A DNA stretch of 64,000 nt, from NCBI RefSeq assembly GCF_003018115.1, contig NZ_CP027457.1. The stretch is one strand, 5' to 3'. The position numbers and the translations under genes were made by a program. A model generated the notes under the pieces. The model had not been told where the DNA came from and searched no databases. It saw only the letters and a list, made by a program, of their open reading frames with translations. The stretch comes from Escherichia coli (lineage in GTDB: Bacteria > Pseudomonadota > Gammaproteobacteria > Enterobacterales > Enterobacteriaceae). Positions 27,811 through 41,215 of the stretch are shown here, piece after piece. Numbering within the stretch: position 1 is the first letter of the stretch; the number at the start of each line of letters is the position of its first letter.

Positions 27811-30402
27811 ATGCATCAATCTGGTTCTGTTTCTCTTTGTCGTTCCGCAATATCTGTTCTGGTGGCTACAGCGTTATATTCACCCATAGCATTGGCATCA
27901 ACAGTTGAGTATGGTGAGACAGTTGATGGTGTTGTCCTGGAAAAAGATATCCAGCTGGTTTATGGGACCGCCAATAATACGAAAATCAATCCTGGCGGAG
28001 AACAGCATATTAAAGAATTTGGTATAAGTAGTAATACTGAAATTAACGGCGGGTATCAGTACATTGAAATGAATGGCACCGCAGAATACTCCGTATTAAA
28101 TGATGGTTATCAAATTGTTCAAATGGGTGGCGCGGCAAACCAGACTACCCTCAATAATGGTGTGCTACAGGTTTATGGCGCAGCGAATGATCCCACGATT
28201 AAAGGCGGGCGCTTAATTGTTGAAAAAGATGGGATTGCCGTCTTTGCCGCTATCGAAAAGGGAGGATTACTGGAGGTTAAAGACGGGGGATTAGCATTTG
28301 CGGTAGATCAGAAAGCAGGCGGTGCTATTAAAGCAAGCACGCGGGTCATGGAGGTATTCGGAACAAACCGTCTCGGTCAGTTCGAAATCAAGAATGGTAT
28401 TGCTAACAATATGCTGTTGGAAAACGGCGGAAGTTTGCGAGTTGAAGAAAATGACTTCGCTTATAATACTACTGTAGATAGTGGCGGCTTACTGGAGGTT
28501 ATGGATGGCGGGACTGCAACTGGCGTTGATAAAAAAGCAGGCGGAAAATTAATTGTCTCAACGAATGCGCTGGAAGTGAGTGGTACAAACAGTAAAGGCC
28601 AATTTAGTATAAAAGATGGTGTGTCAAAAAATTATGAACTGGATGATGGTTCTGGGCTTATTGTTATGGAGGACACGCAGGCCATTGACACTATCCTCGA
28701 TGAGCATGCCACTATGCAATCGCTGGGAAAGGATACTGGTACGAGAGTGCAGGCAAATGCGGTATATGATCTCGGTCGATCAGATCAGAATGGAAGTATA
28801 ACGTATTCCTCTAAAGCCATCTCTGAAAATATGGTTATCAACAATGGCCGCGCTAATGTCTGGGCTGGCACAATGGTTAACGTTTCAGTCAGAGGGAATG
28901 ATGGCATTCTTGAGGTCATGAAGCCGCAAATAAATTATGCACCCGCTATGTTGGTGGGTAAGGTAGTGGTTTCTGAGGGCGCTTCTTTTAGAACGCATGG
29001 TGCCGTGGATACCAGCAAAGCGGATGTTTCGCTCGAAAATAGCGCATGGACCATCATTGCCGATATCACTACGACGAACCAAAACACCCGCCTTAACTTA
29101 GCCAACCTTGCGATGTCTGGCGCAAATGTGATTATGATGGATGAGCCAGTGACTCGTTCATCTGTGACGGCAAGTGCGGAAAATTTCACTACGTTGACCA
29201 CCAATACCCTGTCGGGAAACGGCAATTTTTATATGCGTACCGATATGGCGAATCATCAGAGCGATCAGCTCAACGTCACCGGTCAGGCAACAGGTGATTT
29301 CAAAATATTCGTGACGGACACCGGTGCCAGCCCGGCAGCAGGAGATAGCCTTACACTGGTAACAACGGGCGGCGGTGATGCTGCATTTACGTTGGGCAAT
29401 GCCGGAGGCGTTGTTGATATCGGTACGTATGAATATACCTTGCTGGATAATGGCAACCATAGCTGGAGTTTGGCAGAGAATCGCGCGCAAATTACCCCTT
29501 CAACCACTGATGTGCTGAATATGGCGGCCGCACAACCGCTGGTATTTGATGCAGAACTGGACACCGTGCGTGAGCGTCTTGGTAGCGTAAAAGGCGTTAG
29601 TTACGATACGGCGATGTGGAGTTCGGCAATTAACACCCGCAACAACGTGACCACTGATGCGGGAGCTGGTTTTGAGCAAACATTGACGGGCCTGACGCTC
29701 GGTATCGATAGCCGTTTCTCCCGTGAAGAAAGCAGTACAATTCGCGGCTTGTTCTTTGGTTACTCTCATTCTGATATTGGTTTTGATCGCGGCGGAAAAG
29801 GTAATATCGATAGCTATACCCTGGGGGCTTATGCCGGTTGGGAGCATCAGAACGGTGCCTATGTTGATGGAGTGCTGAAAGTTGACCGTTTTGCCAACAC
29901 CATCCATGGCAAGATGAGTAATGGGGCAACAGCGTTTGGCGATTACAGTAGTAACGGCGCAGGTGCTCATGTCGAGAGCGGGTTCCGTTGGGTTGACGGA
30001 TTGTGGAGTGTTAGACCCTATCTCGCCTTTACCGGCTTTACCACAGATGGTCAGGACTACACGTTATCAAACGGCATGCGCGCGGATGTGGGAAATACCC
30101 GGATATTACGCGCTGAAGCGGGAACGGCGGTAAGCTATCACATGGACCTGCAAAACGGTACGACGCTGGAACCCTGGCTGAAAGCCGCCGTGCGTCAGGA
30201 ATACGCCGATTCTAACCAGGTGAAAGTTAATGACGATGGCAAATTTAATAATGATGTGGCTGGAACCCGTGGCGTTTATCAGGCTGGGATAAGGTCATCG
30301 TTTACCCCGACGTTAAGCGGTCATTTGTCAGTCAGCTATGGCAATGGCGCAGGGGTAGAATCGCCGTGGAATACCCAGGCTGGTGTGGTCTGGACGTTCT
30401 GA
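27811..30402 (+). CDS. yejO: Autotransporter adhesin-like protein YejO (intact, 863 aa)
   Basis: Signal peptide, repetitive G/N/T-rich passenger, and a C-terminal beta-barrel ending ..AGVVWTF. No IS interruption seen. Confidence 0.85.
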   Translation: MHQSGSVSLCRSAISVLVATALYSPIALASTVEYGETVDGVVLEKDIQLVYGTANNTKINPGGEQHIKEFGISSNTEINGGYQYIEMNGTAEYSVLNDGYQIVQMGGAANQTTLNNGVLQVYGAANDPTIKGGRLIVEKDGIAVFAAIEKGGLLEVKDGGLAFAVDQKAGGAIKASTRVMEVFGTNRLGQFEIKNGIANNMLLENGGSLRVEENDFAYNTTVDSGGLLEVMDGGTATGVDKKAGGKLIVSTNALEVSGTNSKGQFSIKDGVSKNYELDDGSGLIVMEDTQAIDTILDEHATMQSLGKDTGTRVQANAVYDLGRSDQNGSITYSSKAISENMVINNGRANVWAGTMVNVSVRGNDGILEVMKPQINYAPAMLVGKVVVSEGASFRTHGAVDTSKADVSLENSAWTIIADITTTNQNTRLNLANLAMSGANVIMMDEPVTRSSVTASAENFTTLTTNTLSGNGNFYMRTDMANHQSDQLNVTGQATGDFKIFVTDTGASPAAGDSLTLVTTGGGDAAFTLGNAGGVVDIGTYEYTLLDNGNHSWSLAENRAQITPSTTDVLNMAAAQPLVFDAELDTVRERLGSVKGVSYDTAMWSSAINTRNNVTTDAGAGFEQTLTGLTLGIDSRFSREESSTIRGLFFGYSHSDIGFDRGGKGNIDSYTLGAYAGWEHQNGAYVDGVLKVDRFANTIHGKMSNGATAFGDYSSNGAGAHVESGFRWVDGLWSVRPYLAFTGFTTDGQDYTLSNGMRADVGNTRILRAEAGTAVSYHMDLQNGTTLEPWLKAAVRQEYADSNQVKVNDDGKFNNDVAGTRGVYQAGIRSSFTPTLSGHLSVSYGNGAGVESPWNTQAGVVWTF

Positions 30403-30463
30403 TAACAGACAATAAACAGGCCGTGATGTGTCGCGGTCTGTTTATCGAATTAAATGCAGATAT

Positions 30464-30495
30464 AAAAAAACCAACCTTTACGGTTGGTTTTTTTT
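30464..30495. terminator. Bidirectional hairpin terminator (yejO end; probably the original proL terminator displaced by the island)
   Basis: AAAAAAA-CCAACC-tttac-GGTTGG-TTTTTTTT. On the minus strand it directly follows the partial tRNA 3'-end repeat. Confidence 0.7.
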
Positions 30496-30517
30496 GGGAT
30501 TTTTGGTCGCACGAGAG
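30496..30517. repeat. Island-distal att repeat (partial copy of tRNA-Pro 3' end)
   Basis: GGGATTTTTGGTCGCACGAGAG versus GGCGATTTGGTCGGCACGAGAG at 41337-41358. Confidence 0.75.
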
Positions 30518-30578
30518 TAGTTTAATTGAACGTGTAACTTAATGATTTAAAAGAATGAGTCTGATTCAACTTTTAAGC

Positions 30579-30602
30579 CGTATAACCAAACGTATAGCTA
30601 AA
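30579..30602. promoter_or_regulatory. Tandem 12-mers CGTATAACCAAA CGTATAGCTAAA (candidate integrase arm-type sites, distal arm)
   Basis: Same motif and orientation as CGTATAACTAAA CGTATAACTAAA at 41189-41212 next to int. Confidence 0.55.
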
Positions 30603-30772
30603 TTTATTTGCTGAAAAAATGTACAATTTAGAGTCAGATTTTCCCAGATGTTTAATTTATAAAACGAAGCTGGCGGCTGTTCTCTGATATGTGGATCCCC
30701 ATATCTGGAACCCTACCGGAATTTTTTTCCGGTTACCCTTTAATCAGGCTGGTGGGCTTTACCTGTTCGGTA

Positions 30773-30795
30773 GGTATGATCATTATGATCATACC
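30773..30795. repeat. Perfect 23-bp palindrome GGTATGATCAT-T-ATGATCATACC
   Basis: 11-bp arms read directly from the sequence. The nearby hairpin ACCGGAA-ttttt-TTCCGGT lies at 30715-30733. Confidence 0.9.
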
Positions 30796-30848
30796 TTTCG
30801 CCCCAATGGGAGGTAAAAGCGCCAACTGGACGGTTAAACCGTCTTTTT

Positions 30849-30883
30849 GTCACATCGTGTCACTGGTTGTCACTCTCCGTCAC
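30849..30883. repeat. Four GTCAC repeats with exact 10-bp phasing
   Basis: GTCACatcgt GTCACtggtt GTCACtctcc GTCAC, starting at 30849, 30859, 30869 and 30879. Preceded by hairpin GACGGTT-a-AACCGTC plus TTTTT. Confidence 0.9.
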
Positions 30884-30910
30884 GATGTCCGCTCGCCTGG
30901 CTGTAAATCA

Positions 30911-31139
30911 AACTACGAAATTTTCGTAGTTGTGAGTAAGCCCCAAAATATGGGGATTACTCTTACTACCCAAACTACGGGTAGTTTCCGTAGTTTCATA
31001 GTCGAGTTGCAGATCTGCAACTCCCCCACCAGCCAGCGCAATTTTGCGCTTTGCTTTAAGTTCAGCGAGTTACAGCGCCGACTTCCTCAAATTGAGGTTG
31101 CCGGAAATATCAACCAGTTACGAGGCTCAAAATTGAGCC
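30911..31139. repeat. Train of seven short palindromes/hairpins in non-coding DNA
   Basis: 30911-31 AACTACGAAAtTTTCGTAGTT; 30941-55 CCCCAaaataTGGGG; 30972-87 AAACTACggGTAGTTT (plus CGTAGTTT at 30989-96); 31004-23 GAGTTGCAGATCTGCAACTC (perfect 20-mer); 31035-50 AGCGCAAttTTGCGCT; 31085-97 CCTCAAaTTGAGG; 31124-39 GGCTCAAaaTTGAGCC. Confidence 0.9.
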
Positions 31140-31156
31140 GCCTTTAAATCAACACG

Positions 31157-31438
31157 TTACCGCCGTAACCGCTCCGGCTTCTTCCAGTTGTACGTAATTT
31201 TCTCTTTCTCCCTGTACATCTCTACACGGCGATTGTAGGCCAGCATTTCAAGAACGCGGATCCGTATGTCGCGCATATCAACGCCATTAAGTTCTATACC
31301 ATCACGGCGCATCACCTCCACCACTACACGCACATAATTATCTGCGGTCATGCTGTCCGGCTGCGTGGCCTGTTCGTCAACCTGCTGGCTGATTCCGGCG
31401 ACGCGGCGGATTAATCCCAGTATTTCGGCTTCTGTCAT
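31157..31438 (-). CDS. Hypothetical island protein (93 aa)
   Basis: ORF with ATG preceded by a G-rich SD-like stretch. Follows repeat copy 1. No recognisable motif. Confidence 0.5.
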   Translation of the reverse strand: MTEAEILGLIRRVAGISQQVDEQATQPDSMTADNYVRVVVEVMRRDGIELNGVDMRDIRIRVLEMLAYNRRVEMYREKEKITYNWKKPERLRR

Positions 31439-31475
31439 TGTGCCCCCATCGCGCTGGTGAAGAAAACAAGCTCAG

Positions 31476-31690
31476 ATTTTTTGTAAAGAATCTGTCACGC
31501 TAAAAGATGTCGAACAAAAAACAACCTTCTTCATCATCTTTTTTACATCAAAGCAATTAAAAACAATCACTTACGAACATGATGATGATGACGATAAAAT
31601 CAAAAAAATGCGTTTTTTTCCGCGCCGCCCGCCCCGTGTTCAGGCCCACCCCACCAGGAGGACCCGCAAAAAAGGCGGCTGGTGCCGCCT
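31476..31690 (-). repeat. Copy 1 of ~215-bp island repeat (terminator + G-rich cos-like core + A/T tracts)
   Basis: Aligns block by block with 34015-34228. Shared blocks: TTTTTGTAAA, GAACAAAAAACAACC, ATAAAATCAAAAAAATGCG, TTTTTCCGCGCC, CCGCCCCGTG, CAGGCCC..CCCCACCAGGAG and the terminator hairpin. Confidence 0.85.
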
Positions 31691-31695
31691 TGTTG

Positions 31696-33585
31696 TCATA
31701 GTGAATCGGTACCGCCTGATTTGACCATACCGCGATAATCCAGAGCTGCCACACCTGCATCAATACGGACTTTCCAGGCCACGCCGTCAACGATAAAACC
31801 TTCCTGCTGTTCAAGGTAAGGCTCGTCATTGCCATCAAGATAAGCCACCTCGATTGTGTCCGTTCCCTGTGCGGAAAGCATGTACCATTGTTTTTCGCTG
31901 ATATCATCAAGGCGGGGATCGACGATGATATCAAGTAGCTTGTGGTACGGGTTAAAGATCCCGCTGTTTTTATCAGCCCCGAAAGGTGCGGTTGAGTTAA
32001 TCATCTGCAACGCGCGATCTTCCAGTGCTGCCGGAACTAAAAGGAATTTAGGCGCAATATTCAGCACTTCGCCATTTTTGTCCTTCTGTGTGCGCATCAG
32101 GTGACGTGCTGCACTAAGTCCCGGTGTTGTCAGTCCTGCTTCAATCAGGTTGCTGTGTTTTTTGTCAAACAGCGTTATTCCGTCAGAAAGTTTTACGTTG
32201 CCTGTAAGCACCAGATTAACCAGATTTCCCACCGTTCTTGATGCTGCACGGCCCATAGCCATTGGCACCGTTGATAACTGATCAAGGTCATCATTGATTA
32301 TCGCCTGGCGGGTAATGCTGAAAATATTCCCGTAAGTAGCCAGCGCGATGGGTTCACCGCGATCGCTGGTGGTGATGTATTTATATTCTGCCCCTTCCGG
32401 CACTTTGTTTAACGTTGAGAAGCCATTCATACCAACGCGGCGGGCTTCCCGGAAGTTTGAAAGGGAACCTTTTTTCGTCCACTGGCGGAATGTTTCGCCG
32501 CTGTGCTCCCAGCCTGCAAGCACTGATTTTTCAGCGCCACCAGCAAGGATATCGGTAAAATCGCTGCTGCTGTGGGTGAATGCCGCGTTTACTATCTGCG
32601 AGCGTGTGCCGTAGCTGCCCGTGCTTATACCACGATGGGTTAATGATGCCTGTGCCATATCGAAAAGGCTCATCATGGCGTAAGGATTACCGCGTTCGGC
32701 CCGTTCGTGACCAAGACGCGCATTAAGCCCCTGACGCATGGCATCGCCGGTTATATTGCCGTTATCCGTGTACGCGTAGTAAAGATTTGCGGGGGTGGTT
32801 TTGTTTGTTGGCGTTGATTCTTTACCCATAGCGAGTAAAAGGCGTTCGCGTGCATTCTCAACGCTACATTCTGAATCCGCAAGACAACTTATAGCCAGGT
32901 CGTTATATCTTCCGTTGAAGGTGCCAAACAATTCACGGATTCCGTTAAGTCGTTCCTGTTCGCCACTGCCAGTTTTCTGGCTGATCATGCTTTTAATTTT
33001 TTCCGGCATATTTGAAAAATCTCCGATTCGTTTTGATTCAATTCGGGCCATTGCTGTAATCGCGGGTATAACCTCATCTGCGAAGCCGTTAGCCTTACAC
33101 TCATTGCCATCCATCCAGGTTTCCGCCTCCATCATTGAGGTGATCTCCTGTTTGCTCCTGCCCGTTCTTCCGGCATAGGTTTCTGCCATCGTGTCGCCCA
33201 GCTTGTCCATCAGATCAGCAAAGCGGCGAACGTCGCCCGACACTCCGGCAGTAACACCACGGGGGGCATGTATCATCATCATCGCGTTTTCAGGCATAAC
33301 GATGTGATCTCCACACATGGCAATAAACGACGCCATAGAAGCCGCCATGCCTTCAATGTGTACGATTTTTTTTGCCGGATGATTTTTCAGGGCGTTATAG
33401 ATAGCCAGCCCTTCAAAGATGTCGCCACCAGGTGAATGAATGCTCAGATGGATTTCAGACGCATTACCACACGCGTTGATCTCGTCAGTAAGTGCCGATG
33501 CTTTTACACCGTACCCGCCGATCTCGTCATAAATGCGCACATAGACAACATCTGCCATAGCCTTAATGGAAAACCATGTTTTCAT
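31696..33585 (-). CDS. ClpP-family prohead protease fused to phage major capsid protein (629 aa)
   Basis: N-terminus: IHSPGGDIFEGLAIYNAL..GMAASMASFIAMCGD..MMMIHAPRG (ClpP/S14-like Ser and His motifs). The C-terminal ~330 aa resembles HK97-fold/Mu gpT-like capsid proteins (..ALATYGNIFSITRQAIINDDL..WYMLSAQGTDTIEVAYLDG..). Assignment is from memory of the family, not from a search. Confidence 0.75.
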   Translation of the reverse strand: MKTWFSIKAMADVVYVRIYDEIGGYGVKASALTDEINACGNASEIHLSIHSPGGDIFEGLAIYNALKNHPAKKIVHIEGMAASMASFIAMCGDHIVMPENAMMMIHAPRGVTAGVSGDVRRFADLMDKLGDTMAETYAGRTGRSKQEITSMMEAETWMDGNECKANGFADEVIPAITAMARIESKRIGDFSNMPEKIKSMISQKTGSGEQERLNGIRELFGTFNGRYNDLAISCLADSECSVENARERLLLAMGKESTPTNKTTPANLYYAYTDNGNITGDAMRQGLNARLGHERAERGNPYAMMSLFDMAQASLTHRGISTGSYGTRSQIVNAAFTHSSSDFTDILAGGAEKSVLAGWEHSGETFRQWTKKGSLSNFREARRVGMNGFSTLNKVPEGAEYKYITTSDRGEPIALATYGNIFSITRQAIINDDLDQLSTVPMAMGRAASRTVGNLVNLVLTGNVKLSDGITLFDKKHSNLIEAGLTTPGLSAARHLMRTQKDKNGEVLNIAPKFLLVPAALEDRALQMINSTAPFGADKNSGIFNPYHKLLDIIVDPRLDDISEKQWYMLSAQGTDTIEVAYLDGNDEPYLEQQEGFIVDGVAWKVRIDAGVAALDYRGMVKSGGTDSL

Positions 33586-33776
33586 AGCCAGGCTCCTAAC
33601 GTTGCCTGGTACCAGTATTCAACCGCGCTGCGTGTGATTTGTCCTTTCGTGGGCACTGGCATACCCGGGTGATTATCTTTGATGAACTGCTGATAGCGTT
33701 CGATCTTCTCCATAGTTCCGGCGTCTATGTGCACAGTGGCACTTTTATCCGGCTTTCTGGTGTTGTTCTCTGGCAT
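33582..33776 (-). CDS. Small protein (64 aa from second Met), possibly ribbon-helix-helix-like, translationally coupled to the capsid fusion
   Basis: GGAGG lies 7 nt before the ATG at 33776 (MPENNTRK..). The stop overlaps the capsid-fusion start (ATGA). The pattern TVHIDAGTMEKIERY..TKGQITRSAVEYWY suggests a beta-alpha-alpha fold. Confidence 0.55.
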   Translation of the reverse strand: MPENNTRKPDKSATVHIDAGTMEKIERYQQFIKDNHPGMPVPTKGQITRSAVEYWYQATLGAWL

Positions 33777-33970
33777 AAATCCGCCTCCGTTTTGATTAAC
33801 GGGCATCATTATTGATCGATAAAAGTAATAGATAAATCATTTTCTACCTGAAAATCAGATTATGTTTTTTCTGATTATCCTCAGAGAGGCAAAGCCATTG
33901 ACGCATTTTTGCTATTGAAGCAATATTAAGACTCGTCATCCTGGCGATAAAAACTCCTTTGTCGTGTAAA

Positions 33971-34008
33971 AGCGCCTCCGGTAACAGCAATCGGGGGCGC
34001 TTTTTTTT
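33971..34008. terminator. Strong hairpin flanked by A8/T8 in the leader of the capsid operon (bidirectional terminator-like)
   Basis: GCGCCTCCG-11 nt-CGGGGGCGC (9 bp, one G.T) followed by TTTTTTTT on the plus strand. On the minus strand the same stem is followed by TTTTAC. Confidence 0.6.
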
Positions 34009-34014
34009 GCGCCT

Positions 34015-34228
34015 GTTTTTTGTAAATGTTTTCGGGAACGTTCCAGTGATGAACAAAAAACAACCCGATTCGACACTAAAAATTTTTATTCCTCAATATA
34101 TCAATAGCTTATAGTGGTGGTGATGGTGCCATAAAAATCAAAAAATGCGCCTTTTTCCGCGCCCCTCCGCCCCGTGGACAGGCCCCCCCCACCAGGAGTA
34201 CCTACAAAAAAGCCGGATTGCTCCGGCT
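34015..34228 (-). repeat. Copy 2 of ~215-bp island repeat
   Basis: See copy 1. The terminator AGCCGGA-ttgc-TCCGGCT plus a T-run (minus strand) lies immediately after the PerC-like gene. Confidence 0.85.
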
Positions 34229-34234
34229 GTGTGA

Positions 34235-34507
34235 TTAGCTGTCTTGGTAATTACACCATATTTCATCGCTTACACCATCTATACCCATTTCAGCATAAGT
34301 GCGATCTACTGCCTTTCTCAGGTCTCCGAAGTTATCCGGCGGCTCCGGTGGCCTCTGTGCCTTCCTGGAACATTCCAGCCGTCGCATCGTAACCTGATGC
34401 CGTTCCTTGTCTGTCTCCACCAGCTGCATGACTTCACCCCATCGCGCCGCCGCCCTCCGGTAAAATCCTTTCGCCTCGAGTTCCTCCGCTATGCGGTCAT
34501 GTATCAT
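34235..34507 (-). CDS. PerC-family-like transcriptional regulator (90 aa)
   Basis: The N-terminal pattern IAEELEAKGFYRRAAARWGEVM resembles the AE.LE..G..RRAA.RW signature I recall for PerC/Pch proteins. Confidence 0.5.
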   Translation of the reverse strand: MIHDRIAEELEAKGFYRRAAARWGEVMQLVETDKERHQVTMRRLECSRKAQRPPEPPDNFGDLRKAVDRTYAEMGIDGVSDEIWCNYQDS

Positions 34508-34772
34508 CGCCTGACTCTCCGGTTTTTACGTTGATGGTTGTTACCTGTTCCGCTTCGGCAATCTCCCGTTCTGTCAACGTGGCAAAGTTTGCCGCCGCTG
34601 TGGTCATGAATGCGCTTATCAGTTCGGGATGCTCCTTCGCGTATCCTTCCCCCGCGTGGCGGTCTATTACCCTGATTGCCACCTTTAAGGCGTGCTCTGT
34701 CATGTCTAACGCTTTATATTTCGGCTCTGTTCTGTCTCTGCGCATTTTGGTTATCTCCTCACTCATGCTCAC
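34497..34772 (-). CDS. Hypothetical island protein (91 aa, GTG start)
   Basis: ORF overlaps the downstream gene by 11 nt. Part of the tightly packed operon. Confidence 0.5.
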   Translation of the reverse strand: MSMSEEITKMRRDRTEPKYKALDMTEHALKVAIRVIDRHAGEGYAKEHPELISAFMTTAAANFATLTEREIAEAEQVTTINVKTGESGDDT

Positions 34773-34958
34773 TTTTACACCTCACTTTTTAAAGCGTCTC
34801 GCTTCGTCTCACTTGATATTTTTTGATGCTTTATGTGTGTGTTTCATAAGGATTTTTTTACTCCTCACTTTTGAGCATGTATACAGGTGAGAAAGTGAGT
34901 AATCGTGTTAATATTTTGTAAAAACCTCACCATTACTCACTTTTGCTACTCACTTTTT
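34758..34958. repeat. Iteron cluster (CTCACTTTT family) flanking an AT-rich core: candidate island replication origin
   Basis: CTCACT(T) copies at 34758, 34768, 34781, 34808, 34864, 34936 and 34949; CTCACC at 34926; inverted GGTGAG/AAAGTGAG at 34886-34899. The AT-rich stretch is 34815-34862. Lies immediately 3' of the replication ATPase gene. Confidence 0.6.
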
Positions 34959-36366
34959 ACAGTGGTCCTACATCATCACCATCAATGTAAATCACGGCGT
35001 CTTTTTCCAGTTTGGCTAACCATCGCCGCATATTTTTCACGTCATACCCAAGCCGTTTCATGTCATCACGTAACAGCGGGATCGTGCACTTGTCGCCGTT
35101 CTGTGTGCGTGAACGGATGCACCCCCATAGTGCGGTATGGTTTTCCGTCTTGTTGCCTGCCTCCTCGATGCGTTCCAGTTCAACGGGAGGGCGCGGCTTA
35201 TCCACCACCACCAGCGACGTGATTAACTCCCCGTCAGCGTCGGTAAACAGCTCCACCACGCGTAAGTCATATGCGGCTTCTTTGAGTTCCTCCGCGTCCT
35301 TCATTTTGGTGCATGAGATAACCAGCGCTTCGCTTCCTGCGTCCTCCCTGCGTATCCGGTATTCAGCATCCAGTGATGCACGAAATGCACTGGAACCGCG
35401 CGCGCCTTTCGTCTCATCCTTGCCGGAATGGTGAACCACCAGCACCGTGGCCCCTGTGCGTCGTTTCAGTTCGTCACAACCACGGATAAACGCCCCCATA
35501 TCACGGGAATCATTTTCATCATTCCCACCAAAGCAACGCGCCAGCGTATCCAGAATAATCATGCGTACAGGTTTACCCGTTTCCCGCTCCACCTGACGGG
35601 CAGCGATAACCATTTCATCAACATCAAGCGGGACCGCCGGAAAGATGGGACGGTTTACCAGATACAGATTTTTCACCTGCTCACCGTGCACAACCTCCCA
35701 GGCTTTTACACGACGCGGAACGCCGATACCGCCTTCACCAACCACATAGAGAACAGCGCCATGCGCCACCCTGCGGCCTCCCCACTGGCGGCCCGTGGAA
35801 ACGTGACACGCCCACGATCCGGCAAGGAATGATTTATAGGAACCGCTCGCCCCGTATATGCTGCAAAGCGACGATGCCGGAATAATCCCCTTTACCACGT
35901 AATCAAGCTGTGTGTCGTATCCGGTAGATCCAACGCTCATCGGTAGCGTGGTTTTTCGCTGGGGGATTTTTTTCATGACCAGGCTTTCCCCGCGTTCCCA
36001 TGCCTCCCTAAGCCGTGGAAGCTGGTCGCTCCATTCCTCCAGCAATTCGAAATTTTCAGAAAGTAGCCGCGCCTCCTGGACTCCGGCGATCGCCAGTTTC
36101 GTGGCGATGGTTAACAGCTGCGGCTCTTCAATATTTCCGGCGCGTATCACCGTCGCCCTGTATCGCCCATCATCAACAATCTGGAGGTTATCCAGTTTGC
36201 TTAACTGATAACGCCCCAGATAAACGGGAGGGACTGGATCGCCTGCTTTTTTGGCCTGTGCAATGATGTAATGCTCTGCGAATGAGTGAGCATCAATACC
36301 CGCAAAAATAATCGCATCGGTGTATTTATCTTTCGGTAATCGTTTTACGTTCGGTGCCAGTTTCAT
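34957..36366 (-). CDS. Replication ATPase, RepA/AAA_25 (RecA-like helicase) family, 469 aa
   Basis: Walker A GASGSYKS, Walker B RMIILDT and VVHHSGKD motif, typical of RepA-like helicases of plasmids and satellites. N-terminal ~140 aa unassigned. No zinc-finger or Toprim primase motifs seen. Confidence 0.7.
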   Translation of the reverse strand: MKLAPNVKRLPKDKYTDAIIFAGIDAHSFAEHYIIAQAKKAGDPVPPVYLGRYQLSKLDNLQIVDDGRYRATVIRAGNIEEPQLLTIATKLAIAGVQEARLLSENFELLEEWSDQLPRLREAWERGESLVMKKIPQRKTTLPMSVGSTGYDTQLDYVVKGIIPASSLCSIYGASGSYKSFLAGSWACHVSTGRQWGGRRVAHGAVLYVVGEGGIGVPRRVKAWEVVHGEQVKNLYLVNRPIFPAVPLDVDEMVIAARQVERETGKPVRMIILDTLARCFGGNDENDSRDMGAFIRGCDELKRRTGATVLVVHHSGKDETKGARGSSAFRASLDAEYRIRREDAGSEALVISCTKMKDAEELKEAAYDLRVVELFTDADGELITSLVVVDKPRPPVELERIEEAGNKTENHTALWGCIRSRTQNGDKCTIPLLRDDMKRLGYDVKNMRRWLAKLEKDAVIYIDGDDVGPL

Positions 36367-36662
36367 TTTTTACCCCTGAATCCGTTAATCATGGTTTTCA
36401 GCTTCTGGATGTTTGCCCGTGCCCTGGCGTTGCTGGTGGGCACGTTATGCGGCGCGGTCTGTACCAGAGAAAAATCACGCCGGAACTGATAAACAGGCAT
36501 CACGCAATCATATTCGTAACCTTCACGGCGGTAAGTTACGCACCGTCCCGCCACGCCCTTAATCATTACCGTGCCGCCGTACTGGTCGCGGTAAATATCA
36601 CCGCGCGTAAATTTAGGGTGAGTGTTGCCACTGGCAGTTAAGCCAGAATATTTAAGTTTCAT
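36363..36662 (-). CDS. Small protein, DUF4222-like (99 aa)
   Basis: The pattern YRDQYGGTVMIKGVAGRCVTYRREGYEYDCVMP resembles remembered DUF4222 proteins found upstream of satellite replication genes. ATGA overlap with the ATPase gene. Confidence 0.45.
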   Translation of the reverse strand: MKLKYSGLTASGNTHPKFTRGDIYRDQYGGTVMIKGVAGRCVTYRREGYEYDCVMPVYQFRRDFSLVQTAPHNVPTSNARARANIQKLKTMINGFRGKK

Positions 36663-36667
36663 TATTT

Positions 36668-36901
36668 TTATTCTCCGGTGTGCTGTTCGTTATATCTGTC
36701 GTGCAATGTCTCTATTTCCTGCAACTCATTTATTACAGGCTCAAGAAGCGTTATTAATGCCGTGGCAATTCTTGATTTTTGTTTGTCGCGTTCATTGTCG
36801 CCAAGTGTTTCAAGCCATATGCGCAATATTTCCATCATATTTTCACTGTGAGAAAGTGCAAGAAATACGCGATCTGTTGTTTCGTGGTAAATATCACGCA
36901 T
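36668..36901 (-). CDS. Hypothetical small helical protein (77 aa)
   Basis: ORF packed 1 nt after the upstream stop. Confidence 0.5.
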   Translation of the reverse strand: MRDIYHETTDRVFLALSHSENMMEILRIWLETLGDNERDKQKSRIATALITLLEPVINELQEIETLHDRYNEQHTGE

Positions 36902-36902
36902 A

Positions 36903-37124
36903 TTAATTACCGTCCGTTGTTTTTCTTAAAACAGCTTCTGTCACGAAATCGGCATAGTTAGCGGCAATATCAAGAATATTTAGCCCTGTATCTCTGTGCT
37001 CATCAGTGCAAAGAAAGAAAAAAGCCACCCGCATAATTTCAGATATTGACGAAAGCGCATCAGCCGCATCATCAGGAACGCCGGAAAATTCTTGTTTCAG
37101 GGAATAAAAACGATCATCACGCAT
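36903..37124 (-). CDS. Hypothetical small protein (73 aa from MRDDRFY)
   Basis: The ATG at 37124 overlaps the upstream stop (ATGCGTGA) and is preceded by a GGGGGGG SD-like run. Confidence 0.5.
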   Translation of the reverse strand: MRDDRFYSLKQEFSGVPDDAADALSSISEIMRVAFFFLCTDEHRDTGLNILDIAANYADFVTEAVLRKTTDGN

Positions 37125-37356
37125 AACCCCCCCCATTTTCACAATCAGTAATCAGGATGGTTTTAGCCTCATTCAGTGCCATATCAGCACTAAATTGCAT
37201 AACAGCCAGTGAGTGAGGAACGAAAGCCCCGGTATATTCTGTTTCGCTGGTGGCGTGCTTATGTGCCCTGTCCGCGATAACAGAAATATCAATCAGCGCG
37301 TGCATCAGCGTTTTGATGGCTTCGGCGGCTGCGTCCGGTGTGGTTTTATTGTGCAT
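37117..37356 (-). CDS. Hypothetical small protein (79 aa)
   Basis: ORF overlaps the upstream ORF by 11 nt. Confidence 0.5.
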   Translation of the reverse strand: MHNKTTPDAAAEAIKTLMHALIDISVIADRAHKHATSETEYTGAFVPHSLAVMQFSADMALNEAKTILITDCENGGGYA

Positions 37357-37675
37357 AAAGCATCCCCTGAATATTCGTGTTAATCATTCCGGCACGTTTT
37401 GTGATTTCCTGTAATGATTCCCTTGTGGCGACAATTGCTTCATCTGGTAAGTGGTAATTACACACCACGCGACCTTTATCCACATTGACCAGTAGCTGCC
37501 CTGTGAATTTCTCACGAAACTGAATGCGGTTAAGGTCAGTAAGTGACAGATTAATAATGGCGCACCTCCTGACGAATACGGGCGGCAAATACAGCAACAC
37601 AACCGGACGGGCAACGGTTACGCGCTTCGCGTTCCGTCCAGGCGGTGACGTGGATGATTTGAGATTCTCCGGCAC
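37346..37675 (-). CDS. Hypothetical protein, start uncertain (109 aa from GTG 37675; ~71 aa if initiated at ATT 37558 after AGGAGG)
   Basis: Long open frame overlapping the icd-like ORF out of frame. A strong AGGAGG (37570-37565) has no canonical start codon at proper spacing, only ATT. Confidence 0.4.
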   Translation of the reverse strand: MPENLKSSTSPPGRNAKRVTVARPVVLLYLPPVFVRRCAIINLSLTDLNRIQFREKFTGQLLVNVDKGRVVCNYHLPDEAIVATRESLQEITKRAGMINTNIQGMLYAQ

Positions 37676-37748
37676 TCAGGGCCAGAAAACGCCACACAAA
37701 GGCAGTTTGTGTGTGTACAAGGTGTGGTATATGATTTACGGCAACCAT
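37551..37748 (-). CDS. Small protein (65 aa), tentatively Icd-like (host cell division inhibitor family)
   Basis: GAGGAG SD 5 nt before the ATG. First gene of the leftward operon. The pattern FVWRFLALS..IIHVTAWTEREARNR..VFAARIRQEV resembles my recollection of Icd-like proteins of P4-like elements. Unverified. Confidence 0.5.
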   Translation of the reverse strand: MVAVNHIPHLVHTQTAFVWRFLALSAGESQIIHVTAWTEREARNRCPSGCVAVFAARIRQEVRHY

Positions 37749-37812
37749 AACGGCTCCTCGTTTACGTTGTTGGTTAGAAGCCCCGTTACTGCTCCTACAG
37801 TGCGGGGTTTCG
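37742..37812 (+). ncRNA. Candidate small RNA A (cis-antisense to the RBS/start of the icd-like gene)
   Basis: Promoter-like TTGTGT (37707-12) -17 bp- TATGAT (37730-35). Hairpin GCCCCG-17 nt-CGGGG (37780-37807) followed by TTTCGTCGTTTC. A homologous unit lies at 38453-38565. Confidence 0.35.
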
Positions 37813-37837
37813 TCGTTTCAACACCTTGCCTAAATAA

Positions 37838-37891
37838 GGTGTTGAACACCAATTTAAATCGAGGTGTTAAACACGTCAAGTGTTGAACACT
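37838..37891. promoter_or_regulatory. Three palindromic operators (GGTGTTGAACACC family) overlapping divergent promoter-like hexamers
   Basis: 37838-50 GGTGTTgAACACC (perfect); 37863-75 GGTGTTaAACACG; 37879-91 AGTGTTgAACACT (perfect). Minus strand: TTGACG (37879-74) -17- TAAATT (37856-51). Plus strand: TTGAAC (37883-88) -17- CATACT. Confidence 0.6.
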
Positions 37892-37940
37892 TATTTTTTT
37901 TCCTGCATACTGCATTTGTTTTTTATGAGGGGTGCTCAAC

Positions 37941-38120
37941 ATGGCGACAAAAGCAGTAAACGCAAAATCACAAACAGTTGCGGCAAGGGTTCCACATGAA
38001 GTTATGAACAATGTTGAGGCGGTAAAAATGCCCGGCGAAAGTACAGGGCAGTTTGTTACAGCTGCATTAAAGCGGGAAGTTGAATACCGCCAGCGTCGCA
38101 AGGCCAAAGAATCAGAATAA
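37941..38120 (+). CDS. Ribbon-helix-helix DNA-binding protein 1 (59 aa)
   Basis: ATG preceded by GAGGGG. TVAARVPHEVMNNVEAV..STGQFVTAALKREV fits a beta-strand/helix/helix (CopG/Arc/MetJ) layout. Confidence 0.65.
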   Translation: MATKAVNAKSQTVAARVPHEVMNNVEAVKMPGESTGQFVTAALKREVEYRQRRKAKESE

Positions 38121-38177
38121 TCACTATCAGCGCCGTGGTGTGAGGTACTACGGCGCATTGCTTTACAGGGCAGTATC

Positions 38178-38405
38178 ATGACCAACAACACACTATCACC
38201 AATACAAGACACGCAAACGCAAGATGATGAAATCATCCGGCAAAGGCAGTCAGAAGCCTGCGCCAGACTTGAGGAAGAACTAACCAGAACAAAAATACCA
38301 CCACCAGCGCCGCGCTTAGTGCCACCAGAAAAATTTGCCCTTGAAGATTTTGTCGATAAATACCCACGGCGGCTTAAATCCGGCAAAAACCGACCGCCTG
38401 GCTGA
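38178..38405 (+). CDS. Small protein (75 aa), paralog of 38856..39059
   Basis: MTNN.. start. Shares the motif F.L(E/D)(D/E)F(V/L).KY.R with the second copy. Confidence 0.5.
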   Translation: MTNNTLSPIQDTQTQDDEIIRQRQSEACARLEEELTRTKIPPPAPRLVPPEKFALEDFVDKYPRRLKSGKNRPPG

Positions 38406-38487
38406 GTGCACAAAACCGAACTATGAAACGGATTATTCCGTTTCCGGGGCGTTTGTGTGTGTATAAAGAGTAAGCTATGCTCTTTTA

Positions 38488-38565
38488 TAGCCATAATCGT
38501 TACCTCAATTAATGGTTTGGTTAGACGCCCCGTATGTGAGCCACCACTGCGGGGCGTTGTTTTTT
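38488..38565 (+). ncRNA. Candidate small RNA B (homolog of RNA A with a strong intrinsic terminator)
   Basis: TTGTGT (38453-58) -17 bp- TATGCT (38476-81). TTGGTTAGA, then stem ACGCCCCG (38525-32) / CGGGGCGT (38550-57), then TTGTTTTTTG. Confidence 0.4.
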
Positions 38566-38583
38566 GTATAACGGTAAGTACAA

Positions 38584-38624
38584 TGGTAATTACCATGTAA
38601 CTATAGTAATTAAGGGTAATTACC
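38584..38624. promoter_or_regulatory. Palindromic operators GGTAATTACC (x2, plus a degenerate middle copy) at the RHH-2 start
   Basis: TGGTAATTACCA at 38584-95, AGTAATTAAG at 38605-14, GGTAATTACC at 38615-24, abutting the ATG at 38625. Confidence 0.55.
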
Positions 38625-38798
38625 ATGTCAACACCATTGGAAAAGCGATCGCCTCCATACCAAATGCGGCTACCAGAAGAATTCAGAGCACAACTTGAAG
38701 AGGCAGCGAAAGCAGACGGTGACACTTCTTTAGCCACCTGGATCAAGCGAGTACTCCGAAAAGAATTACAGCAACGCGGTATTGAACCCAAAGGATAA
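38625..38798 (+). CDS. Ribbon-helix-helix (Arc-like) DNA-binding protein 2 (57 aa; below the ORF-track cutoff)
   Basis: Manual translation gives MSTPLEKRSPPYQMRLPEEFRAQLEEAAKADGDTSLATWIKRVLRKELQQRGIEPKG. The MRLPEE..L..AA...G.S....I pattern is typical of Arc/MetJ-type repressors. AAGGG SD lies 8 nt upstream. Confidence 0.6.
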   Translation: MSTPLEKRSPPYQMRLPEEFRAQLEEAAKADGDTSLATWIKRVLRKELQQRGIEPKG

Positions 38799-38855
38799 AA
38801 AACATCAGCGCCGTGGCGTGAGGAACTCCGGCGCATTGCTTTACAGGTACACACA

Positions 38856-39059
38856 ATGACCAACAAAGAATCAACCAATACACCATCGCAAAAAACGAAC
38901 AGAGAGCACGAAAATATGGCGTTCGAGCATGAATCAGAAAGATTCGCACCATGCGCTTTTGTCCTTGATGAGTTTCTAAAAAAATATTCACGTTCTGAAC
39001 GGATGAAAATGGCAGCACAATACGGCCCCAACAAGCAAGATAATTGCCCACCAGCCTGA
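38856..39059 (+). CDS. Small protein (67 aa), paralog of 38178..38405
   Basis: MTNK.. start with FVLDEFLKKYSRSERMK motif. Preceded by the conserved 44-nt hairpin block. Confidence 0.5.
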   Translation: MTNKESTNTPSQKTNREHENMAFEHESERFAPCAFVLDEFLKKYSRSERMKMAAQYGPNKQDNCPPA

Positions 39060-39127
39060 TCGCGGTTATCATGCCCGGGCTTATGATTGTTGACACATAC
39101 GGCGCAGCGGGTTAATTGTTCAGAAAG

Positions 39128-39156
39128 GTGGCTCCATTTCGGGGCCGCTTTTTTTA
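39128..39156 (+). terminator. Rho-independent terminator ending the rightward RHH operon
   Basis: GGCTCC-atttc-GGGGCC stem, then GC and TTTTTTT. Confidence 0.6.
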
Positions 39157-39180
39157 TGTTCATCATTTGCCCTATATATG

Positions 39181-39387
39181 TTAAGCGGTCGTTCCGCGCG
39201 CTTCTTGTTCGCGTTCTTTCATCCATGCGATTACGTCTTCCTCATACCATCCGCGACGGCGCAAACCGACACGAAAACCCTGCGGGAATTCTCCGGCGTT
39301 GATCATGCTTTGCAGCGTGCTGTCTGCCTTAATGTGGATAAGTTTTTTTACTTCCTGGCGAAAGATGACTTTTTTGATTGCTTCCAT
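39181..39387 (-). CDS. AlpA-family phage regulatory protein / excisionase-like (68 aa)
   Basis: The pattern ..LIHIKADSTLQSMINAGEFPQGFRVGLRRRGWYEEDVIAWM.. matches the MerR-like wHTH AlpA/Xis family signature (R.v.W...dV..W). Confidence 0.8.
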   Translation of the reverse strand: MEAIKKVIFRQEVKKLIHIKADSTLQSMINAGEFPQGFRVGLRRRGWYEEDVIAWMKEREQEARGTTA

Positions 39388-39406
39388 CGTGATTTACCTC
39401 ATTAAT

Positions 39407-39488
39407 CCGGTGTATTCCGGTGAGAAATACGGTAAATCATCGGATGCAGGGAAAAACAGTACTCACCGTTTTTAAACGGTATACACCG
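39407..39488. promoter_or_regulatory. Nested inverted repeat across the alpA promoter region
   Basis: CCGGTGTAT (39407-15) and CCGGTGAG (39417-24) pair with CTCACCG (39462-68) and ATACACCG (39481-88). Confidence 0.55.
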
Positions 39489-39520
39489 TTTTTTATATTG
39501 ATGATTTGAAAGGGATTTAT

Positions 39521-39546
39521 AAAAAAAGCGGCATTTCTGCCGCTTT
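39521..39546 (-). terminator. Rho-independent terminator after orf83
   Basis: Minus strand: GCGGCA-gaaa-TGCCGC followed by TTTTTTT. Confidence 0.7.
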
Positions 39547-39554
39547 CAGGATTG

Positions 39555-39806: not shown

Positions 39807-39883
39807 GGCCTCGTCGTTAAATGTGATGCAATTATACGACGGTTTTAAATGGTTTTCGTAGTTTTTACTGGTTTTCTGTACAG

Positions 39884-41125: not shown

Positions 41126-41156
41126 ATGCTTATGATTCCAAACGAAAAAACAGGGT

Positions 41157-41212
41157 TTTAGTTATACGGCTTTAGTTATACGTCAGCCCGTATAACTAAA
41201 CGTATAACTAAA
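41157..41212. promoter_or_regulatory. Four 12-mers (2 direct TTTAGTTATACG + 2 inverted CGTATAACTAAA) upstream of int
   Basis: Copies at 41157-68, 41171-82, 41189-200 and 41201-12. Same motif as 30579-30602 at the other island end. Confidence 0.6.
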
Positions 41213-41215
41213 AAA

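What the first reader, a model, noticed from the sequence alone, without database searches (positions are those of the whole stretch)
30849..30883. Four GTCAC repeats with perfect 10-bp helical phasing near the int-distal end
Seen: GTCACatcgtGTCACtggttGTCACtctccGTCAC. The repeats are preceded by a hairpin + T5 (GACGGTTaAACCGTCTTTTT, 30829-30848) and a perfect 23-bp palindrome (30773-30795). One-face-of-the-helix arrays are typical of cooperative protein binding (small terminase at cosB/pac, replication initiators, RDFs). Inference: a protein-binding array belonging to the packaging, recombination or replication machinery of the island.
Basis: seen in the sequence. Interest (0 to 1): 0.5.

Follow-up and report, generated by a model that had tools for sequence, protein, structure and literature searches.

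The report
Phased TGTCAC repeat cassette in satellite
A real, conserved but optional 50-bp cassette of four to five TGTCAC repeats spaced exactly one DNA turn apart sits in the non-coding tail of an E. coli phage satellite (PICI); it matches the replication-origin repeats of the lambdoid phages this satellite probably parasitises, so it may bind the helper phage's replication initiator.

Summary
In detail: GTCAC x4 at exact 10-bp spacing (30849-30883), preceded by a hairpin+T5 and a perfect 23-bp palindrome, none expected by chance. The window holds a ~10.8-kb PICI-type satellite (30504-41358) between yejO and tRNA-Pro. The array is a discrete ~50-bp cassette (ACCGTCTTTTT + 4-5 repeats). It occurs in 230 of 5,426 E. 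coli genomes, always between the last island gene (orf93) and the int-distal att site. It is found in islands with different integration sites, replication modules, cos types and capsid genes. Cores never vary, spacers do, and repeat number changes by whole 10-bp units. It is not cosB: two Tritos/mEp460-type cos sites lie about 750 bp and 3.3 kb away. It is not the integrase arm site (CGTATAAC) and not the island origin (AGTGAG iterons at 34746-34962). It is absent from most sister islands, including EcCICFT073 and EcCIEDL933. Phased GTCAC arrays are common in viral contigs, often as iteron clusters inside phage replication-initiator genes. Phage Tritos shares the island's cos and capsid type and carries such clusters. 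Best guess, unproven (0.33): the cassette binds the helper phage's initiator, as a decoy or an auxiliary origin.

The parts
30849..30883 (+). The array: four GTCAC cores (30849, 30859, 30869, 30879) at exact 10-bp phasing. Three of the four are preceded by T, giving TGTCAC.
   Evidence: Cores are invariant in 8 aligned sequence variants of the 4-core block from related islands. Sister islands carry five repeats, or have lost exactly one 10-bp unit of that five-repeat form.
30838..30848 (+). Conserved left flank of the cassette, ACCGTCTTTTT. The T run is 4-6 long in relatives.
   Evidence: It is present in every array-bearing island, while the sequence further left differs between island types.
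30829..30848 (+). Hairpin GACGGTTAAACCGTC plus T5, a weak terminator-like element on the + strand that overlaps the cassette's left flank.
   Evidence: -10.1 kcal/mol. The hairpin is not conserved in L005/L043/L068-type islands, where the equivalent stretch folds at -2.2 kcal/mol. Only the ACCGTC-T run is part of the conserved cassette.
30773..30795 (.). Perfect 23-bp palindrome with two GATC sites. It is context, in a separate mosaic block from the array.
   Evidence: The block 30760-30826 matches hundreds of genomes independently of the array block 30827-30891.
30688..30755 (+). Conserved context block shared by array-bearing and array-less islands: palindrome TATGTGGATCCCCATA (30688-30703), CCGGAATTTTTTTCCGG (30716-30732) and Chi GCTGGTGG (30748-30755).
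30579..30598 (+). Int-distal integrase arm-type sites, CGTATAAC and CGTATAGC (context; shows what the arm sites really are).
   Evidence: The repeat is shared with 41161-41208 next to int (family D14, 70, 88).
30504..30517 (+). Int-distal att core, TGGTCGCACGAGAG, a copy of the tRNA-Pro 3' end at 41344-41358.
31035..31159 (+). Three tandem 'short palindrome + IHF-like site' modules between the array and the orf93 stop codon. Two of the three sites match the IHF consensus exactly. In other islands this spacer is 9 to 300 bp long.
31157..31438 (-). orf93, the last island gene, whose 3' end faces the array. It is a three-helix protein of unknown function (PHROG 1561).
   Evidence: It is present in 1,566 of 5,426 E. 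coli genomes.
31600..31670 (-). cos site 1, with Tritos/mEp460-type cosQ and cosN. It points toward orf93 and the array.

Best explanation
SHOWN: The array is the core of a discrete, mobile, optional ~50-bp cassette, ACCGTCTTTTT followed by four or five (T)GTCAC units one helical turn apart. It sits in the non-coding tail of E. coli/Shigella PICI satellites, between the last gene (orf93) and the int-distal att site. INFERRED, with reasonable support: it works as a one-face, cooperative protein-binding array, that is, an iteron cluster. INFERRED, weaker: its partner is not an island-specific protein but the replication initiator of lambdoid helper prophages (the 'replisome organiser' / PHROG 3729 type). 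The origin iterons of those initiators are TGTCAC units at 10-11-bp phasing. Binding of the helper initiator to many copies of the replicating satellite would either titrate it away from the helper origin (interference by an origin decoy) or let the satellite start replication with helper proteins (an auxiliary origin). Nothing here shows binding, and nothing separates decoy from auxiliary origin.
For: Reality and selection:
- One site in the window, none in 100 shuffles.
- Core positions variable in 0 of 20 cases against 5 of 15 spacer positions (p = 0.009).
- Four- and five-unit versions, and an exact 10-bp unit loss, all keep the phase.

Discrete cassette:
- The array block (30827-30891) matches other genomes at 90-93% identity independently of its flanks.
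- It is present in 230 genomes at 258 places.
- It occurs in islands at four integration sites (yejO/proL, clpS, phoQ, tqsA) with different capsid, TerS/Rpp and replication genes.
- It lies 9 to 300 bp from the orf93 stop codon.

Independence from island modules:
- Island origins use AGTGAG, AGTGGG or GGTAGA iterons, while the array stays constant.
- Integrase arm sites are CGTATAAC.
- No island ORF family co-occurs absolutely with the array, and the two RHH genes show no association.

Link to helper initiators:
- Of 120 viral contigs carrying GTCAC x4 at 10-bp phasing, at least 48 have the array inside an ORF of 150 aa or more with the conserved initiator N-terminus I used as a marker. Some arrays are followed by purine/AT-rich DNA, as in lambda ori.
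- Phage Tritos has two such clusters inside its replication-initiation gene (PHROG 3729, E = 1e-257).
- Tritos also has the island's cosQ/cosN type, and a protease-capsid fusion 51% identical to the island's. It is therefore a plausible helper type.
- The N-terminal part of this initiator gene is in prophages of 2,077 of 5,426 E. coli genomes.

Precedent:
- Ectopic lambda origin copies, or iterons without the AT-rich part, block replication of lambda (PMC4488673 and PMC3349717).
Against: - No binding data exist.
- The match to phage iterons is limited to the 6-mer TGTCAC and the phasing. Phage units mostly read TGTCACG, whereas two island units read TGTCACT.
- The cassette is not found in any sequenced phage by BLAST.
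- The AT-rich DNA next to the array is short, lies on the opposite side relative to repeat orientation compared with Tritos, and is only partly conserved.
- The island already has its own replicon.
- Most sister islands, including the two best-studied ones, lack the cassette, so it is not needed for the satellite life cycle.
- Co-occurrence of array-bearing islands with GTCAC-type prophages in the same genomes could not be tested.
- 5-bp motifs are easily shared by unrelated DNA-binding proteins. From my own knowledge, the lambda Int arm-site consensus and the matS half-site also contain GTCAC.
Confidence: 0.33

Rival explanations
1. The array binds an unidentified island or host protein that acts on transcription at the end of the island operon. 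It could be a roadblock or terminator aid stopping read-through from orf93 across attP into int in the excised circle. It could also be an upstream element of a leftward promoter that drives int from the circular form.
For: The array starts 9-19 bp after the orf93 stop codon in the compact islands. All island genes run in one direction, so in the circle the array lies between the last gene and attP-int. A weak sigma-70-like promoter (30817-30788, minus strand) lies just downstream of the array in the window, and a hairpin+T5 adjoins it.
Against: The promoter-like site and the hairpin are not conserved in other array-bearing islands. The cassette is absent from 87% of orf93-bearing places. No candidate protein co-varies with it.
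Confidence: 0.18
2. It is a non-functional tandem repeat, or a relic of some past recombination, carried along in a highly mosaic, palindrome-rich, non-coding tail.
For: The tail between orf93 and att is a patchwork of small modules that come and go. The cassette is optional. The islands are closely related (orf93 72-100% identical), so conservation is partly shared ancestry. Unit-number changes are what slippage between repeats produces anyway. The orf93-plus-tail region of EcCICFT073 can be deleted without loss of transfer (primers in the PMC6739421 supplement; sequence).
Against: Cores are invariant while spacers vary. The cassette boundaries stay sharp across different flanks and four integration sites. 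Exact helical phasing of a 5-mer four to five times is not what slippage of a random sequence creates in the first place.
Confidence: 0.15
3. It is a binding array for a recombination directionality factor (Xis, AlpA or Cox type) that shapes the attR or attP complex.
For: From my own knowledge, three to five direct repeats at 10-11-bp phasing in the int-distal arm are typical of such factors (lambda Xis, L5 Xis, P2 Cox, 186 Apl). The array is in the int-distal part of the island.
Against: It lies about 330 bp from the core and 250 bp outside the arm-type sites, rather than between core and arm. It is kept in islands that use different att sites and arm motifs. An island at the same att site with the same arm motif lacks it (L129). 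No GTCAC repeats occur near int.
Confidence: 0.1
4. It is a packaging signal: an extended cosB, or a pac-like recognition array for a helper or island small terminase.
For: From my own knowledge, phased hexamer clusters are known at pac sites (for example P1 pac). The array lies on the side of cos site 1 that is packaged first, 750 bp from cosN. Some sister islands encode TerS or Rpp next to orf93.
Against: It is separated from cosN by cosB-like DNA and a whole gene. No similar repeats occur in the cosB of Tritos or mEp460, nor in the experimentally defined cos1 and cos2 of EcCICFT073. Array presence is unrelated to cos type or to TerS/Rpp carriage.
Confidence: 0.07
5. It is a second cluster of sites for the island's own Rep protein, like P4 crr or the control iterons of plasmids.
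For: The array is associated with the RepA-helicase type of replication module (16 of 20 array-bearing against 5 of 23 array-less loci, p = 2e-4, samples not independent). The window's origin iteron AGTGAG shares 5 of 6 bases with the array unit AGTGAC read on the gene strand.
Against: Origin iterons differ among array-bearing islands (AGTGAG, AGTGGG, AGTGGGC, and GGTAGA in primase-type islands), while the array is constant. None of the window's origin iterons ends in C.
Confidence: 0.05

Closest known systems
Origin iteron clusters of lambdoid phage replication initiators (lambda O type organisation; here the 'replisome organiser'/PHROG 3729 initiators, e.g. Escherichia phage Tritos TRITO_36)
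   Same: Both have four to five direct repeats on one face of the helix. Both share the core TGTCAC and 10(-11)-bp phasing. The phage itself also has a second cluster without an adjacent AT-rich stretch.
   Different: The island array is intergenic, in a satellite, not inside an initiator gene. The base after the core differs in two units. It has no clear unwinding element, and what there is lies in the opposite orientation. No flanking homology to any phage was found.
PICI/SaPI replication origin (two iteron sets flanking an AT-rich region, immediately 3' of pri/rep; Fillol-Salom 2018, PMC6092414)
   Same: Both are iteron-like direct repeats in a PICI.
   Different: This island has that canonical origin at 34746-34962, with AGTGAG iterons. 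The GTCAC array is 4 kb away, has one set only, and does not co-vary with Rep.
lambda-type cosB (R sites for TerS) and the Rpp-dependent cosB of EcCICFT073 cos1 (PMC6739421)
   Same: Both are protein-binding repeats of a cos-packaged element, on the packaging-start side of cosN.
   Different: The array is not adjacent to cosN, has a different sequence, and contains no IHF site. EcCICFT073 lacks the array altogether.
Recombination directionality factor arrays and integrase arm-type sites (lambda P'1-P'3 with consensus C/AAGTCACTAT; L5 Xis X1-X4; P2 Cox boxes) - recalled from my own knowledge
   Same: Both are tandem direct repeats at about 10 bp in an att arm. The lambda arm consensus even contains GTCAC.
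   Different: The island integrase's arm sites are CGTATAAC. The array is outside the arm region and independent of integrase type.
Engineered origin decoys against lambda (PMC4488673) and iteron-dependent inhibition of rep-lambda phages (PMC3349717)
   Same: They are a mechanistic precedent: extra copies of initiator-binding iterons block phage replication without needing the AT-rich part.
   Different: Those are laboratory constructs carrying the phage's own origin. A natural satellite-borne decoy has not been described, as far as my searches of the held papers show.

Membership tests
lambda-type cosB / TerS R-site array | Lies directly next to cosN (within about 50-150 bp), between cosN and the first packaged gene | tested here: not met
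   The cosN-like sites are at 31629-31637 and 34167-34175 (minus strand). The array is about 750 bp from the nearer one, beyond orf93.
lambda-type cosB / TerS R-site array | Repeats resemble the cosB repeats of the helper, or of a characterised PICI cos site | tested here: not met
   No GTCAC repeats occur in the cosB of mEp460 or Tritos, nor in EcCICFT073 cos1 and cos2.
Tyrosine-integrase arm-type sites | The same motif is present on both arms of attP and tracks the integrase type | tested here: not met
   Both arms carry CGTATAAC/CGTATAGC (30579-30598 and 41161-41208). There is no GTCAC array near int. The array occurs with other att sites and arm motifs, for example GGTGTAGT(T/C)AAT at phoQ.
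RDF (Xis/Cox/AlpA) binding array | Tandem direct repeats at helical phasing | tested here: met
RDF (Xis/Cox/AlpA) binding array | Located within the att arm between the core and the outer arm-type sites, and present wherever the cognate integrase system is present | tested here: not met
   It lies 250 bp outside the arm sites. It is absent from L129, which has the same att site and arm motif.
PICI/SaPI origin of replication | Two iteron sets flanking an AT-rich region, immediately 3' of the rep gene, with iterons specific to that Rep | tested here: not met
   That structure exists at 34746-34962 with AGTGAG iterons. The array is a single set 4 kb away and stays constant across Rep and iteron types.
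Phage initiator iteron cluster (lambda ori type) | At least four direct repeats at about one helical turn | tested here: met
Phage initiator iteron cluster (lambda ori type) | Repeat core identical to the iterons of an identified initiator family present in plausible helper phages | tested here: met
   TGTCAC units at 10-11 bp occur inside the Tritos replication-initiation gene and in many prophage homologues. Identity is limited to the 6-mer.
Phage initiator iteron cluster (lambda ori type) | Adjacent AT-rich unwinding element, and location within the initiator gene | tested here: inconclusive
   It is not inside a gene. Only a short T run and a roughly 60-65% AT stretch lie on the left, partly conserved and on the opposite side relative to the Tritos arrangement. 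Tritos's own first cluster also lacks an AT-rich flank.
Phage initiator iteron cluster (lambda ori type) | Bound by the initiator protein | not testable with these tools
   Needs EMSA, footprinting or ChIP.
Auxiliary iterons of the element's own replicon (P4 crr, plasmid control iterons) | Same repeat as in the element's own origin | tested here: not met
   AGTGAG, AGTGGG or GGTAGA in the origins against constant GTCAC in the array.
Intrinsic terminator (hairpin + T run) | Stable GC-rich stem directly followed by a U run, conserved among homologues | tested here: inconclusive
   In the window it is a 7-bp stem at -10.1 kcal/mol plus T5 on the + strand. The stem is missing in L005-type islands (-2.2 kcal/mol). 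The island operon runs on the other strand.

The most novel reading that the evidence does not exclude
A phage satellite carries a copy of its helper's replication-origin iterons without the rest of the origin. As the satellite amplifies, these sites soak up the helper's initiator protein. That would be a DNA-only interference device, a natural origin decoy. Alternatively the sites let the satellite be replicated by helper proteins. The cassette moves as a module between PICIs and so tunes which helper replication types a satellite can exploit or inhibit.
Probability: 0.25. Interest if true: 0.75.

Novelty: new variant of a known kind. Interest (0 to 1): 0.45.

Why it matters
PICIs of E. coli are intensively studied for how they hijack helper packaging (cos sites, Rpp, own capsids). 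The non-coding tail after the last gene has not been analysed in the papers I could search. If the cassette binds the helper's replication initiator, it would add a new layer of satellite-helper conflict that acts at replication and is encoded purely in DNA. It would also give a simple, portable tool, a 50-bp decoy, against a replication module present in prophages of 38% of sequenced E. coli genomes. If it binds something else, it is still a clean, small, conserved handle for finding an unknown DNA-binding partner. If it is inert, it is only a curiosity of a mosaic region.

Tried and rejected
- BLAST of the 641-bp tail and of the 76-bp cassette against 50,697 phage records found no meaningful match.
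- An Rfam scan of 30300-31800 found nothing near the array.
- A search for the lambda cosN sequence GGGCGGCGACCT in the window gave chance-level hits only. The real cos sites turned out to be of the Tritos/mEp460 type.
- orf93 as an Rpp or TerS-like DNA binder: no PDB or Pfam hit, a three-helix model of modest confidence, and a narrow family. RppA is a different 144-aa protein.
- An association screen over 43 islands on both strands found no absolute partner gene. The RHH genes are unlinked (9/20 against 10/23, and 3/20 against 2/23). The only signal is the RepA-type replication module, which is contradicted by iteron non-covariation.
- Cross-species conservation: orf93 homologues were found only in E. 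coli and Shigella among species-representative genomes. The first scan found nothing, and the second found one Shigella locus, which carries the array.
- Host-factor motifs recalled from memory (PhoB, OmpR-family boxes, CreB, DnaA, CRP, matS, SlmA, Fur, sigma-54) were compared by eye. None fits both the core and the 10-bp direct-repeat spacing, so none was pursued.
- A Chi pair bracketing the array looked like the signature of a break site. However, the att-side Chi belongs to a block present in all islands, with or without the array, and fits protection of the cos end.
- Papers on PICI cos sites, Rpp, cf-PICIs and EcCIMP1 do not mention this repeat.

Full report
THE OBSERVATION

The sequence GTCACatcgtGTCACtggttGTCACtctccGTCAC is at 30849-30883 exactly as described. 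Three of the four units read TGTCAC. A search for the phased pattern with up to two mismatches finds only this site in the window and none in 100 dinucleotide-preserving shuffles. The hairpin GACGGTTAAACCGTC (30829-30843) followed by T5, and the perfect 23-bp palindrome at 30773-30795, are also real.

WHERE IT SITS

The window is E. coli chromosome: nap-ccm-narP-yejO, then an island, then tRNA-Pro, then yejM. The island runs from the att core copy at 30504-30517 to the copy inside tRNA-Pro at 41344-41358. All its main genes are on the minus strand:
- a P4-type integrase (39884-41125)
- AlpA (39181-39387)
- DUF4222
- a RepA-like helicase (34957-36366)
- PerC
- a ClpP-protease/major-capsid fusion (31696-33585)
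- a 93-aa last gene, orf93 (31157-31438)

This is the layout of Gram-negative PICI satellites (PMC6092414). The array is in the 640-bp non-coding tail between orf93 and the int-distal att site, about 330 bp from the core.

WHAT THE OTHER FUNCTIONAL SITES OF THE ISLAND ARE

- Packaging. The island has two cos sites on the minus strand, at about 31600-31670 and 34140-34205. Their cosQ and cosN match phages mEp460 and Tritos. The Tritos record starts at the cohesive end GGGCGGGAGCG and ends at ...GGGTCCTCCCGGTGGGGGCCCCTGCCACG. The nearer cosN is about 750 bp from the array, with cosB-like DNA and orf93 in between. Neither the helper-type cosB regions nor the experimentally defined cos1 and cos2 of EcCICFT073 contain GTCAC repeats.
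- Recombination. The integrase arm-type sites are CGTATAAC/CGTATAGC, two at 30579-30598 and four at 41161-41208. The array lies 250 bp beyond them.
- Replication. The island's origin has the published PICI form, iterons flanking AT-rich DNA immediately 3' of rep. It lies at 34746-34962 and uses AGTGAG iterons.

CONSERVATION

The array is part of a discrete cassette.
- A 201-bp query splits into two independent blocks. Positions 30827-30891 (hairpin plus array) match other genomes at 90-93% on their own.
- A 56-bp query finds the cassette in 230 of 5,426 complete E. coli genomes, at 258 places, all chromosomal.
- It occurs in islands integrated at yejO/proL, clpS, phoQ and tqsA. These carry protease-capsid fusions or capsid plus decoration genes, with or without TerS or an Rpp-like gene. 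Their replication module is either the RepA-helicase or the primase type. It is also in the Shigella flexneri representative genome.
- The shared unit is ACCGTCT(4-6) followed by the repeats. DNA to the left and right differs between island types.
- Across eight aligned sequence variants, none of the 20 core positions varies while 5 of 15 spacer positions do (p = 0.009).
- Some islands have a fifth unit, and one lineage has lost exactly one 10-bp unit of that five-repeat form. The phase is always kept.
- The distance to the orf93 stop codon is 9, 19, 66, 91, 117, about 275 or 300 bp. The difference is made up of small 'palindrome plus IHF-like site' modules.

The cassette is also optional.
- orf93 is in 1,566 genomes at 2,010 places, so only about one place in eight has the array.
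- EcCICFT073, the cf-PICI EcCIEDL933 and three other islands lack it.
- One of these, L129, is at the same att site and has the same arm motif as the window's island.
- In EcCICFT073 the whole orf93-plus-tail region was replaced by a marker in the derivative used for transfer experiments (primer sequences in the PMC6739421 supplement, mapped). This shows the tail is dispensable there, but says nothing about the array, which that island lacks.

WHO COULD BIND IT

I looked for an island gene that travels with the array in 43 islands, 20 with and 23 without it. There is no absolute partner.
- The two ribbon-helix-helix genes are unlinked.
- The only signal is the RepA-helicase replication module (16 of 20 against 5 of 23). 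The samples are not independent.
- The origin iterons of array-bearing islands differ (AGTGAG, AGTGGG, AGTGGGC, GGTAGA) while the array does not. The island's own Rep is therefore an unlikely partner.
- orf93 gives no hit to solved structures or Pfam. It models as three helices and is confined to E. coli and Shigella.

The strongest lead comes from outside the island.
- Six of these are the PICI cassette.
- At least 48 lie inside long ORFs that carry the conserved N-terminus I used as a marker for phage replication initiators. That regular expression was derived from two examples, so the count is approximate.
- Several of these arrays are followed by purine/AT-rich DNA, the arrangement of lambda ori inside gene O.
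- In Escherichia phage Tritos the replication-initiation gene (PHROG 3729, E = 1e-257) holds two clusters. One has four units. The other has five units followed by GATAAAGATACAGATAAAG.
- Tritos has the island's cos type. Its protease-capsid fusion is among the closest phage relatives of the island's, at 51% identity. It is thus the kind of phage this satellite is adapted to.
- The N-terminal part of that initiator gene, which includes its first iteron cluster, is present in prophages of 2,077 of 5,426 E. coli genomes.

MOST LIKELY MECHANISM

Shown: a conserved, phase-preserving, modular repeat cassette that is independent of the island's integrase, Rep, cos and capsid modules.

Inferred: it is a cooperative protein-binding array. 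Its partner is something constant outside the variable island modules.

Best candidate: the GTCAC-iteron type initiator of lambdoid helper prophages. Binding would either titrate the initiator or seed helper-dependent replication. Ectopic lambda origin or iterons are known to block lambda replication (PMC4488673, PMC3349717).

I put this at about one in three, for these reasons:
- The match is only a 6-mer plus phasing.
- Two island units differ from the phage consensus at the next base.
- There is no clear unwinding element.
- No phage carries the cassette.
- No binding or co-occurrence test was possible.

RIVALS

- A transcription-related site at the end of the operon or facing attP-int in the circle. 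The local promoter-like and terminator-like features are not conserved.
- An inert repeat in a mosaic region.
- An RDF array. The position is wrong and it is missing from an island with the same att system.
- A packaging site. It is too far from cosN and unrelated to cos, TerS or Rpp type.
- Auxiliary iterons for the island Rep. There is no co-variation.

COMPARISON WITH WHAT IS KNOWN, AND NOVELTY

In form it is closest to phage origin iteron clusters. It fails the defining tests for cosB, integrase arm sites, RDF sites, the PICI origin and P4-crr-like sites. It meets the repeat-structure and core-motif tests for initiator iterons, while the unwinding element and binding remain open. The papers I could search on PICI cos sites, Rpp, cf-PICIs and EcCIMP1 do not describe this repeat. 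I rate it a new variant of a known kind, an iteron-type binding array in an undescribed place. Interest is moderate, and would be high only if the helper-initiator link is confirmed.

Noticed in passing
window 30504-41344 (sites at 30748, 31026, 32365, 32537, 34417, 35208, 35436, 36432, 37246, 38301, 39048, 39956): Chi (GCTGGTGG) is strongly enriched in the island. There are 12 sites in 10.8 kb, against 14 in the other 53 kb of the window. Among 168 same-composition 8-mers Chi is the single most frequent (mean 0.46, maximum 12). In 56 related PICI loci the average is about 1 Chi per kb. This could protect the linear or rolling-circle satellite DNA from RecBCD.
   Followed up: partly
window 30688-30755: A block is conserved in all islands examined, with or without the array: palindrome TATG(G/T)GGATCCCCATA, hairpin CCGGA(A)T7CCGG and a Chi site. 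The Chi is oriented to be active for RecBCD entering from the cos/orf93 end of packaged DNA.
   Followed up: partly
window ~31600-31670 and ~34140-34205 (minus strand): Two cos sites with Tritos/mEp460-type cosQ-cosN lie 2.5 kb apart in the same orientation (72% identical over 111 nt). This mirrors the two cos sites of EcCICFT073. The first has a 2-bp shorter cohesive-end region than the phages.
   Followed up: partly
window 31035-31159; L128 (EcCIEDL933) 1000-1500; L129-L131: The tail after orf93 is built from a variable number of tandem ~47-bp modules. Each is a different short palindrome followed by an IHF-like site, many matching the consensus WATCAANNNNTTR, and the last one overlaps the orf93 stop codon. 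The window has three modules (two with exact consensus sites) and EcCIEDL933 about seven. Function unknown.
   Followed up: no
window 37700-39230: An imperfect tandem duplication of roughly 680-750 bp lies in the regulatory region (repeat families D2, D5, D6). It yields a probably spurious 496-aa minus-strand ORF and holds two ribbon-helix-helix genes on the + strand (37932-38120, 38625-38798). The sister island in strain OkiPb01682 is about 0.9 kb shorter here.
   Followed up: no
window 34746-34962; related loci: The RepA-helicase type PICI origins show at least three iteron specificities (AAAGTGAG, AAAGTGGGG, AAAGTGGGC) in otherwise collinear origins. One island (L184) has an expanded run of iterons.
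   Followed up: no
window 31696-33585 (minus strand): The island carries a single head gene, a ClpP-protease/major-capsid fusion about 51% identical to that of mEp460, Tritos and Stx-phage heads. It has no portal or terminase genes. It is therefore neither a classical PICI without capsid genes nor a full cf-PICI.
   Followed up: partly
window 30852-30859 and 30880-30887: In this island only, spacer 1 (ACATCGTG) is the inverted complement of the sequence right after the fourth unit (CACGATGT). The array could therefore form a stem here (-12.4 kcal/mol, z = -1.9). This is not conserved in other variants.
   Followed up: yes
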